Shown here in pieces: positions 29,532 to 29,705 of a stretch of DNA of 64,000 nt. Position numbers and translations under genes: made by a program. Location: NCBI RefSeq assembly GCF_003334405.1, contig NZ_QOWM01000004.1; one strand, given 5' to 3'. This DNA comes from Escherichia coli (GTDB taxonomy: Bacteria > Pseudomonadota > Gammaproteobacteria > Enterobacterales > Enterobacteriaceae). The stretch's first letter is position 1, and each line of letters starts with the position of its first letter. The notes under the pieces are model-generated. The model was not told the origin of the DNA. It did not search any database and was given only the letters and a program-made list of their open reading frames with translations.

Positions 29532-29705
29532 ATGGCAAACCATCGAGGCGGTTCCGGCAATTTTGCAGAAGACCGCGAAAGAGCATCAGAAGCAGGTAAA
29601 AAAGGTGGACAGCACAGCGGGGGTAATTTCAAGAATGACCCGCAGCGCGCATCTGAAGCAGGTAAAAAAGGTGGTAAGAGCAGTCACGGCAAAAGCGACA
29701 ACTAG
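29532..29705 (+). CDS. ymdF: KGG-repeat stress-induced small protein
   Basis: Track ORF 29502..29705; ATG at 29532 after GGAGG gives 57 aa with three RASEAGKKGG-type repeats. Confidence 0.85.
   Translation: MANHRGGSGNFAEDRERASEAGKKGGQHSGGNFKNDPQRASEAGKKGGKSSHGKSDN

What the first reader, a model, noticed from the sequence alone, without database searches (positions are those of the whole stretch)
29532..29705. ymdF encodes a 57-aa peptide built from KGG-type repeats
Seen directly: three RASEAGKKGG-like repeats, a strong GGAGG Shine-Dalgarno, followed by two REP elements and a hairpin plus T-run (29936-29963) that overlaps the rutG stop. It resembles small hydrophilic stress proteins of the KGG-repeat family; its function is poorly defined.
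Basis: partly seen in the sequence, partly recalled or inferred. Interest (0 to 1): 0.2.

Follow-up and report, generated by a model that had tools for sequence, protein, structure and literature searches.

The report
ymdF, a known small stress protein
This is the already annotated E. coli gene ymdF, which encodes a 57-residue disordered, very hydrophilic stress protein made of two (not three) KGG repeats; the gene is ordinary, and the only unexpected feature is that the repeat element behind it sits between two copies of the gene's terminator hairpin.

Summary
The ORF at 29532-29705 is real and is E. coli ymdF. RefSeq annotates it at this position, and every one of 5,426 complete E. coli genomes matches the region. 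The GGAGG Shine-Dalgarno, the two REPs and the hairpin plus T-run that reaches the rutG stop codon are all confirmed. The repeat count is wrong: Pfam KGG (PF10685) matches twice (residues 10-30 and 32-52, E about 1e-8), and RASEAGKKGG occurs twice. Both refutation criteria fail. There is a family match, and the protein has been seen intact: the published top-down mass of 5748.73 Da equals the mass I computed for the des-Met product (5748.733 Da). Published work shows sigma-S dependence, induction in biofilm and acid, a biofilm and tolerance defect in the ymdF deletion, and redundancy with the paralogue YciG (91% identical over residues 1-43). The most likely mechanism is a hydrophilin/LEA-like protective disordered protein; this is inferred. 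The gene is already known and of low interest. One by-product is worth recording. The two REPs form one 152-nt BIME-1 element flanked by a direct duplication of the terminator hairpin. Empty-site alleles carry one hairpin. The same pattern holds at 9-10 of 13 independent BIME-1 copies.

The parts
29495..29511 (+). Conserved promoter-proximal block ATGCAATATGATGTCTA. It holds a -10-like TATGAT at 29501-29506. This is the inferred ymdF promoter, with a start site predicted near 29512-29514.
   Evidence: The block is invariant or nearly so in E. coli, Salmonella, Klebsiella, Enterobacter and Citrobacter while its surroundings diverge. Promoter function is inferred; no transcription-start data were available.
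29521..29525 (+). Shine-Dalgarno GGAGG, 6 nt upstream of the ATG.
   Evidence: Read directly from the sequence. Invariant in five genera.
29532..29705 (+). ymdF coding sequence, 57 codons plus TAG.
   Evidence: ORF and translation. RefSeq annotates ymdF here. The computed des-Met monoisotopic mass of 5748.733 Da equals the published intact mass of 5748.73 Da.
29559..29621 (+). KGG repeat 1 (residues 10-30, NFAEDRERASEAGKKGGQHSG).
   Evidence: Pfam PF10685, E = 7.5e-9.
29625..29687 (+). KGG repeat 2 (residues 32-52, NFKNDPQRASEAGKKGGKSSH).
   Evidence: Pfam PF10685, E = 4.3e-9. DNA direct repeat with 66-nt spacing.
29759..29779 (.). Left copy of the duplicated terminator hairpin (CACCGCCGGTTACCCGGTGGT). 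The + strand has no U-run after it. On the - strand it is followed by GATGGCTTTTT.
   Evidence: Direct repeat D2, folds, comparison with the empty-site allele.
29780..29932 (.). One complete BIME-1 (RIB-type) mosaic element, about 152 nt. Its order is outer-left motif, z1 REP at 29805-29833, L linker at 29834-29868 with an IHF-like site, y REP at 29869-29902, then outer-right motif.
   Evidence: REP pattern matches. Alignment with copies at yajD-tsx, livF and yacH-lpd. Rfam repeat-derived matches to naRNA4 and ES036. BIME-1 definition taken from PMC3333891. Absent from E. coli 042.
29933..29964 (+). Right copy of the hairpin (stem-loop 29934-29954) plus U-run. This is the intrinsic terminator of ymdF, and its T-run overlaps the rutG stop codon at 29962-29964.
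   Evidence: Terminator scan, fold at -15.7 kcal/mol, rutG coordinates.

Best explanation
The locus is ymdF, a monocistronic gene conserved in synteny (agp-yccJ-wrbA-ymdF) across Enterobacteriaceae.

Expression: it is most likely transcribed from a sigma-S-dependent promoter a few dozen bases upstream. It is translated from a strong Shine-Dalgarno. In this strain it is terminated about 255 nt downstream, after a BIME-1 element, at a hairpin plus U-run.

Product: a 56-residue protein after Met removal. It is basic (pI 9.9), 21% glycine and almost free of hydrophobic residues. It consists of two 22-residue KGG repeats and has no stable fold.

Mechanism (inferred): it acts as a hydrophilin/LEA-like protectant. 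It accumulates in stationary phase, biofilm and acid or water stress. It shields proteins or membranes non-enzymatically, and each repeat may gain a helix on crowding or dehydration. It acts redundantly with its paralogue YciG.

What is shown and what is inferred: gene, product, family, regulation and mutant phenotypes are shown, here or in the cited papers. The shielding mechanism is inferred from composition and from published in-vitro protection by YciG.
For: Identity and reality of the gene:
- Annotation and presence in 5,426 of 5,426 genomes.
- Two PF10685 matches.
- 2,113 homologues, the listed ones all PF10685.
- The intact-mass match fixes the start codon.
- The N-terminus MANHRGGSGNF is nearly invariant across genera. 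Enterobacter has a 5-nt indel between the -10 block and the Shine-Dalgarno, which breaks the frame of the upstream ATGs.

Hydrophilin criteria are met: GRAVY -1.71 and Gly 21%, against published thresholds of >1 and >6%.

Disorder:
- AlphaFold2 gives mean pLDDT 64.8 and pTM 0.26, with only two short helices at residues 11-23 and 37-43, one per repeat.
- No PDB relative was found.
- Salmonella orthologues are reported as experimentally disordered.

YciG is 91% identical over residues 1-43. It protected LDH during drying at a 1:1 molar ratio according to Reyes 2005, as cited in PMC3983491.

Regulation and phenotypes:
- RpoS-dependent in Salmonella and E. coli.
- Acid-induced, with redundancy among paralogues.
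- The E. coli ymdF deletion gives thin biofilms and about 100-fold higher H2O2 killing. It cross-complements with P. aeruginosa PA2146.
Against: - No protection assay has been reported for YmdF itself in the papers I could read.
- Kaleta et al. could not link PA2146 to classical stresses outside biofilms, and they place it upstream of BrlR abundance. That looks regulatory rather than protective.
- YciG was picked up as a two-hybrid partner of the c-di-GMP phosphodiesterase YhjH in S. Paratyphi A.
- Motility phenotypes are reported for the paralogues.
- Over-expression effects on persisters differ in direction between antibiotics.
- The promoter assignment is a phylogenetic footprint only.
Confidence: 0.55

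Rival explanations
1. YmdF is a specific regulatory disordered protein. It binds one or a few partners, for example a c-di-GMP phosphodiesterase such as PdeH/YhjH, or a factor that controls flagellar synthesis or BrlR-like regulators. Through them it couples the sigma-S response to the switch between motility and biofilm.
For: - The ymdF deletion has a biofilm-architecture defect. E. coli ymdF restores BrlR levels and biofilm formation in P. aeruginosa PA2146 and sagS deletion mutants.
- YciG was recovered three times in a YhjH two-hybrid screen.
- The paralogues are reported to influence flagellum-dependent motility in S. Typhimurium.
- Residues 4-48 are very strongly conserved across genera. 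This is tighter than composition-only shielding would require.
Against: - The YhjH interaction is serovar-specific, concerns YciG rather than YmdF, and rests on two-hybrid data plus a model.
- The motility phenotype was not reproduced in S. Enteritidis.
- No partner of YmdF is known.
Confidence: 0.3
2. YmdF binds nucleic acids or ribosomes. It is a basic, Lys/Arg/Gly-rich peptide that coats RNA, DNA or ribosomes in stationary phase.
For: pI 9.9, with 11 K+R against 7 D+E. It is co-regulated with stationary-phase factors such as rmf in published transcriptomes.
Against: There is no direct evidence in any source I read. No Pfam or NCBIfam nucleic-acid-binding match was found.
Confidence: 0.08
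3. YmdF is a nucleotide-binding protein that acts through a Walker A motif.
For: G48-KSSH-G-K-S55 fits the GxxxxGK[ST] pattern. The Pfam family text, as quoted, mentions a Walker-like motif in YciG.
Against: - 3.6% of composition-matched shuffles give the same pattern.
- It is absent from the Klebsiella, Pluralibacter, Citrobacter, Enterobacter and Salmonella orthologues.
- It lies in the variable C-terminal tail.
- No fold exists to support a P-loop.
Confidence: 0.02
4. The functional product is RNA: the ymdF mRNA or its long REP-containing 3' UTR acts as a regulatory RNA, and the ORF is incidental.
For: The 3' UTR is about 255 nt and strongly structured (-46.9 kcal/mol, z = -5.1). Rfam gives an ES036 match above its gathering score and a naRNA4 match below it.
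Against: - The protein is detected intact.
- The repeats differ by 5 synonymous and 4 non-synonymous codons while the peptide motif is kept.
- The Rfam matches are to the dispersed repeat itself.
- The 3' element is missing from about half or more of E. coli genomes.
Confidence: 0.03

Closest known systems
YciG (E. coli b1259), first gene of yciGFE
   Same: Paralogue, 39 of 43 identical over residues 1-43. It has two KGG repeats, a similar size (59 aa) and RpoS dependence, is classed as a hydrophilin, and was detected by the same top-down MS study.
   Different: - YciG has a different C-terminal tail (QQSGGNKSGKS-type).
- YciG is in an operon with yciF and yciE. ymdF stands alone between wrbA and rutG.
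- In-vitro protection was shown for YciG, not for YmdF.
STM14_1829 / SEN1538 and YmdF of Salmonella
   Same: Same family and size, sigma-S-controlled, seen by proteomics. Deletions have redundant acid and motility effects. The Salmonella ymdF neighbourhood is syntenic.
   Different: E. coli K-12 has two paralogues, not three. Salmonella YmdF is 55 aa with a different tail. Salmonella has rutR-like and putA genes downstream instead of rutG.
PA2146 of Pseudomonas aeruginosa
   Same: A KGG protein of about 5 kDa, strongly biofilm-induced. It and E. coli ymdF complement each other's deletion.
   Different: Different genomic context, near katE. It is placed downstream of SagS and upstream of BrlR, and neither regulator exists in E. 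coli.
GsiB (B. subtilis), Con-10 (Neurospora) and group 1 LEA proteins of plants
   Same: All are hydrophilic, glycine-rich stress proteins built from tandem motifs of about 20 residues ending in K/R-G-G. RefSeq names YmdF 'con-10 family general stress protein'. Homology between GsiB and LEA group 1 was proposed by Stacy and Aalen 1998 (reference seen).
   Different: They carry many more repeats and are controlled by sigma-B or by developmental programmes. No LEA_5 Pfam match to YmdF was found at E <= 10. I did not test the relation to GsiB or Con-10 by alignment.
BIME-1 / RIB elements (y + z1 REP pair with an IHF-binding L linker)
   Same: The element behind ymdF has a 29-nt z1 and a 34-35-nt y REP in inverse orientation. 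[quoted passage not shown]
   Different: The flanking direct duplication of a locus-specific terminator hairpin is not mentioned in the BIME/REP papers I could read. Those papers model REP mobility on IS200/IS605 transposition, which makes no target repeats.

Membership tests
KGG repeat family (Pfam PF10685) | Significant match to the PF10685 profile | tested here: met
   Two full-length matches (model positions 1-22 of 22) at residues 10-30 and 32-52, E = 7.5e-9 and 4.3e-9.
KGG repeat family (Pfam PF10685) | Tandem repeats of about 22 residues with a conserved GNF...D...A.EAG.KGG core in a small protein | tested here: met
   Offset-22 self-identity of 17/35. The core is invariant in 9 homologues.
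KGG repeat family (Pfam PF10685) | Stress-induced (general stress sigma factor) expression | not testable with these tools
   Literature only: RpoS-dependent and induced by acid and biofilm growth.
Hydrophilins (Garay-Arroyo et al. 2000) | Hydrophilicity index > 1 and glycine > 6% | tested here: met
   GRAVY -1.71 and Gly 21%. Criteria as quoted in PMC3983491.
Hydrophilins (Garay-Arroyo et al. 2000) | Protects enzymes during water loss in vitro | not testable with these tools
   Reported for the paralogue YciG only.
Intrinsically disordered proteins | No stable tertiary fold | tested here: met
   AlphaFold2 mean pLDDT 64.8, pTM 0.26, no residue at 90 or above. Only 3 hydrophobic residues. No PDB relative. 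Salmonella orthologues are reported as disordered in solution.
Group 1 LEA proteins (Pfam LEA_5) | Match to the LEA_5 profile | tested here: not met
   The Pfam scan lists only KGG, plus one insignificant DUF6291 match, at E <= 10. The resemblance is functional and compositional only.
P-loop NTPases | Conserved Walker A motif inside a strand-loop-helix fold | tested here: not met
   The pattern is present in the E. coli protein only. It arises by chance in 3.6% of shuffles, is absent from five orthologues, and lies in a disordered tail.
BIME-1 / RIB repeat elements | One y and one z1 REP in inverse orientation, separated by the conserved long L linker, as a single copy | tested here: met
   z1 at 29805-29833, L at 29834-29868, y at 29869-29902. 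Aligns end to end with copies at three other loci. Definition.
BIME-1 / RIB repeat elements | IHF binding to the L linker | not testable with these tools
   Only a sequence resembling the IHF core (TCAAtataTTG on the - strand of the linker) is seen directly. Binding is known for the family from Boccard and Prentki 1993, as cited.
Intrinsic (Rho-independent) terminators | G+C-rich hairpin directly followed by a U-run | tested here: met
   Hairpin at 29934-29954 with 8 pairs (7 G-C), then TTTTCTGTTTA. Fold of -15.7 kcal/mol, z = -3.4. The 3' end itself was not measured.

The most novel reading that the evidence does not exclude
A 152-nt BIME-1 element inserted into the single bidirectional terminator shared by ymdF and rutG and duplicated the whole 18-22-bp hairpin.

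The same architecture recurs at most full-length BIME-1 copies: a locus-specific hairpin repeated directly on both sides, and one hairpin at the empty site. BIME-1 would then spread by a route that targets terminator hairpins and cuts at both feet of the hairpin or cruciform. Current IS200/IS605-style models of REP mobility do not predict this.

After insertion the A-run stays with the left copy and the T-run with the right copy. Both convergent transcripts must therefore cross the element before terminating.

The probability given is for the reading being both correct and not already described in the 1990s BIME papers that I could not access.
Probability: 0.3. Interest if true: 0.55.

Novelty: already known. 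Interest (0 to 1): 0.18.

Why it matters
The gene itself adds little. ymdF is annotated, its protein has been observed, its family and regulation are known, and mutant phenotypes are published. The molecular mechanism of KGG proteins remains open, and the window sequence cannot resolve it.

The by-product could matter more. How REP/BIME elements spread has been unresolved for decades, and a 2021 paper still states this. Hairpin-sized flanking duplications, together with matched filled and empty alleles inside one species, give a concrete and testable footprint of the insertion event. They also show how such insertions lengthen the 3' UTRs of both convergent genes.

Tried and rejected
- **Three repeats:** rejected. 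There are two Pfam matches, one DNA repeat pair, and two copies of RASEAGKKGG.
- **Longer 67-aa ORF from the ATG at 29502:** rejected. Its mass would be 7093 Da against 5748.73 Da observed. The upstream ATGs lie in the conserved -10 block, and their frame is broken by a 5-nt indel in Enterobacter.
- **Walker A / NTP binding:** rejected as a chance match that is not conserved. Kaleta et al. state that YmdF lacks the motif that YciG has. At the level of the pattern E. coli YmdF has it too, but it is meaningless in both.
- **NCBIfam:** no family at E <= 1.
- **PDB sequence search:** nothing at E <= 1.
- **Rfam:** only repeat-derived matches (naRNA4 below its threshold, ES036 just above) plus noise, so there is no evidence for a dedicated sRNA.
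- **Other ORFs overlapping the region** (29363-29599 +, 29444-29632 -, 29718-29810 +): no annotation, no Shine-Dalgarno and no conservation signal. Not pursued.
- **A non-repeat origin for the 25-nt and 30-nt sequences flanking the REP pair:** rejected. They are the conserved outer motifs of BIME-1.
- **Papers I could not obtain:** Oguri 2019 (J Bacteriol), Boccard and Prentki 1993, Bachellier 1997.

Full report
**1. What is in the sequence**

Window 29532-29705 (+) is a 57-codon ORF, ATG to TAG. It encodes MANHRGGSGNFAEDRERASEAGKKGGQHSGGNFKNDPQRASEAGKKGGKSSHGKSDN. GGAGG lies at 29521-29525, 6 nt before the ATG.

The neighbours are yccJ and wrbA, divergent on the left, and rutG, convergent on the right. 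Megablast of 29160-29990 matches all 5,426 complete E. coli genomes. RefSeq annotates the ORF as ymdF, 'con-10 family general stress protein' (b4518 in MG1655).

**2. The repeats**

The tools find two.
- Pfam KGG (PF10685) matches residues 10-30 and 32-52 over the full model, with E = 7.5e-9 and 4.3e-9.
- Self-identity of the protein peaks only at an offset of 22 residues: 17 of 35 identical, against 6 or fewer elsewhere.
- The DNA has one 62-nt direct-repeat pair with 66-nt spacing.
- The 18 aligned codons of the two repeats differ at 9 codons, 5 synonymous and 4 non-synonymous. The peptide rather than the DNA is what is kept.

The N-terminal HRGG and the C-terminal tail are only fragments of a repeat.

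**3. Is it a real, expressed gene with this start?**

Yes.
- A published top-down mass-spectrometry study identified intact YmdF in E. coli colonies at 5748.73 Da, minus Met (PMC5594050). I computed 5748.733 Da for the des-Met product of this ORF.
- A product from the in-frame ATG at 29502 would weigh 7093 Da.
- Orthologues in Klebsiella, Pluralibacter, Citrobacter, Enterobacter and Salmonella all begin MANHRGG.
- Enterobacter has a 5-nt indel between the conserved -10 block and the Shine-Dalgarno, which breaks the frame of the upstream ATGs.

**4. Surroundings and regulation**

The order agp-yccJ-wrbA-ymdF is conserved in Salmonella, Klebsiella, Enterobacter and Citrobacter.

I aligned the wrbA-ymdF intergenic regions of the five genera. 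A block ATGCAATATGATGTCTA (29495-29511) is invariant or nearly so, and it contains a -10-like TATGAT. The Shine-Dalgarno and start region are invariant. From this I infer a promoter with a start near 29512-29514 and a leader of about 19 nt. This was not measured.

Further conserved blocks lie upstream at 29394-29409 and 29433-29446. Their meaning is unknown.

The literature reports the following.
- RpoS dependence of ymdF and its paralogues in Salmonella and E. coli (PMC5437024, PMC7161692).
- Acid induction, and redundancy with yciG.
- Induction at the onset of persister formation.
- Strong biofilm induction.

**5. What the protein is like**

| Property | Value |
|---|---|
| GRAVY | -1.71 |
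| Glycine | 21% |
| Hydrophobic residues | 3 |
| pI | 9.9 |
| AlphaFold2 mean pLDDT | 64.8 |
| AlphaFold2 pTM | 0.26 |

The composition meets the published hydrophilin thresholds of hydrophilicity index >1 and Gly >6%. The AlphaFold2 model, built on a 9-sequence alignment, shows only two short helices, one per repeat at residues 11-23 and 37-43. No PDB chain is related.

Salmonella orthologues are reported as experimentally disordered (Oguri et al., as cited). I could not read that paper.

The E. coli paralogue YciG is 91% identical over residues 1-43.

**6. How it most likely works**

Published phenotypes:
- The E. coli ymdF deletion forms thin biofilms and is about 100-fold more sensitive to H2O2. 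It is also more sensitive to tobramycin and ciprofloxacin.
- ymdF and P. aeruginosa PA2146 complement each other.
- In S. Typhimurium the single deletions are silent at pH 4.5, but the yciG ymdF double deletion is mildly impaired.
- YciG protected LDH during vacuum drying at a 1:1 ratio (Reyes 2005, as cited).

I therefore favour a hydrophilin/LEA-like, non-enzymatic protectant that acts redundantly with YciG (confidence about 0.55).

The main rival (about 0.3) is a specific regulatory disordered protein.
- PA2146 and ymdF restore BrlR levels in a sagS deletion mutant.
- YciG was found as a two-hybrid partner of the c-di-GMP phosphodiesterase YhjH in S. Paratyphi A.
- Residues 4-48 are conserved more tightly than a composition-only function needs.

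A Walker-A function is rejected. G48KSSHGKS55 fits the pattern, but 3.6% of shuffles do too, and five orthologues lack it.

**7. The 3' region**

The two REPs are confirmed.
- A 29-nt z1-type copy lies at 29805-29833 and a y-type copy at 29869-29902, in inverse orientation.
- The window holds five y-type copies against 0 expected by chance.
- Between the two REPs lies the conserved L linker. Rfam matches it only through repeat-derived families.
- Together with the conserved outer motifs, the REPs form one complete 152-nt BIME-1 (RIB-type) element at 29780-29932. It aligns end to end with copies at yajD-tsx, downstream of livF, and at yacH-lpd.

The hairpin at 29934-29954 plus TTTTCTGTTTA is a canonical intrinsic terminator on the + strand. 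Its T-run reaches the rutG stop codon at 29962-29964.

**8. An unexpected detail**

The hairpin is present twice in direct orientation, at 29759-29779 and 29933-29954, immediately flanking the BIME-1.

E. coli 042 lacks exactly 174 nt and has a single hairpin, preceded by an A-run and followed by a T-run. That is one bidirectional terminator for ymdF and rutG. The filled allele is found in 1,738 of 5,426 genomes at 98% identity or more. The shorter match typical of the empty allele is found in about 2,700 more diverse genomes.

A second locus behaves the same way with the roles reversed. At yacH-lpd, K-12 carries the empty site with one hairpin. Strain DE17 and the type strain carry a BIME-1 flanked by two hairpin copies; this allele is in 494 genomes.

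To test how general this is, I scanned the species-representative genomes with an exact L-linker pattern and obtained 30 loci.
- Of 13 independent full-length copies, 9 have cognate left and right flanks that align with scores of 9.5-19.5. The maximum in 156 non-cognate pairings was 8.0. A tenth copy ties that maximum.
- In E. albertii the two hairpin copies differ by a compensatory base pair.

The simplest reading is a target-site duplication of the whole terminator hairpin on insertion. After insertion the A-run stays with the left copy and the T-run with the right copy, so each convergent transcript must cross the BIME-1 before it reaches a hairpin followed by its own U-run. In this strain the ymdF 3' UTR would be about 255 nt instead of about 80 nt. 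This is inferred.

The REP/BIME papers I could read do not mention such duplications. They model mobility on IS200/IS605 transposition, which makes none, and they call the dissemination mechanism unresolved. BIME-1 presence/absence polymorphism itself is known. I could not read the 1990s papers that might already describe the flanking repeats.

**9. Verdict**

The gene is already known and of low interest. The hairpin duplication around BIME-1 is the one item worth a specialist's attention.

Noticed in passing
window 29759-29954: The terminator hairpin occurs twice in direct orientation (29759-29779 and 29933-29954), exactly flanking a 152-nt BIME-1. E. coli 042 has the 174-nt-shorter empty site with one hairpin. 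The filled allele is in 1,738 of 5,426 complete genomes. It looks like a hairpin-sized target-site duplication.
   Followed up: yes
L011 177-369 versus L042 (MG1655 129337-129406); also L014, L016, L017, L018, L022, L025, L028, L034: The same architecture occurs at other loci and in other species. At yacH-lpd, K-12 holds the empty site and B2-type strains the filled one. Nine to ten of 13 independent full-length BIME-1 copies have locus-specific hairpins repeated directly on both sides, with alignment scores of 9.5-19.5 against a maximum of 8.0 in non-cognate controls.
   Followed up: partly
L011 349-369 versus L042: At yacH-lpd the right hairpin copy has identical stems, but its loop (CAGAATA) differs at 5 of 7 positions from the empty-site loop (GTGGTTA). 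A plain duplication does not explain this. In E. albertii (L014) the two copies differ by a compensatory T..A to C..G pair.
   Followed up: no
window 29826-29868 (-): The Rfam family ES036 (CssrF sRNA) matches just above its gathering score (38.5 against 37.6 bits). The matched stretch is simply the L linker of the BIME-1. The family appears to model a dispersed repeat rather than a unique sRNA gene.
   Followed up: partly
window 29394-29409, 29433-29446, 29212-29221, 29236-29244, 29260-29274, 29295-29311: Several blocks in the wrbA-ymdF intergenic region are invariant across five genera while the rest diverges. Examples are TGTTGCAGGATATTAC, TTCACTAAGCTTA and TTTGATTTATAACAA. They are candidate regulator sites for ymdF and/or wrbA; I did not try to identify the binding factors.
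   Followed up: no
window 29673-29696 (residues 48-55): E. coli YmdF carries GKSSHGKS, a literal GxxxxGK[ST] Walker A pattern, although a published paper states that YmdF lacks the motif that YciG has. The pattern arises by chance in 3.6% of shuffles and is absent from five orthologues, so it is not meaningful.
   Followed up: yes
H1, NZ_CP085074.1 3046269-3047876: In one E. coli strain the ymdF region match is split by an IS1B-family insertion.
   Followed up: no
proteins P0012 (83 aa) and P0094 (65 aa): Rare ymdF variants. One E. coli genome has a read-through of the stop codon that adds 26 residues. A Klebsiella oxytoca form has a hydrophobic C-terminal tail, probably from a frameshift.
   Followed up: no
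L005 1640-1715 and ORF 1782-1913: Klebsiella has an insertion of about 72 nt in the wrbA-ymdF intergenic region and a called 43-aa ORF with no Pfam hit on the opposite strand.
   Followed up: no
window 4217-4246, 23909-23938, 42567-42596, 46190-46219: Four further y-type REP copies occur elsewhere in the window. None has the BIME-1 L linker.
   Followed up: no
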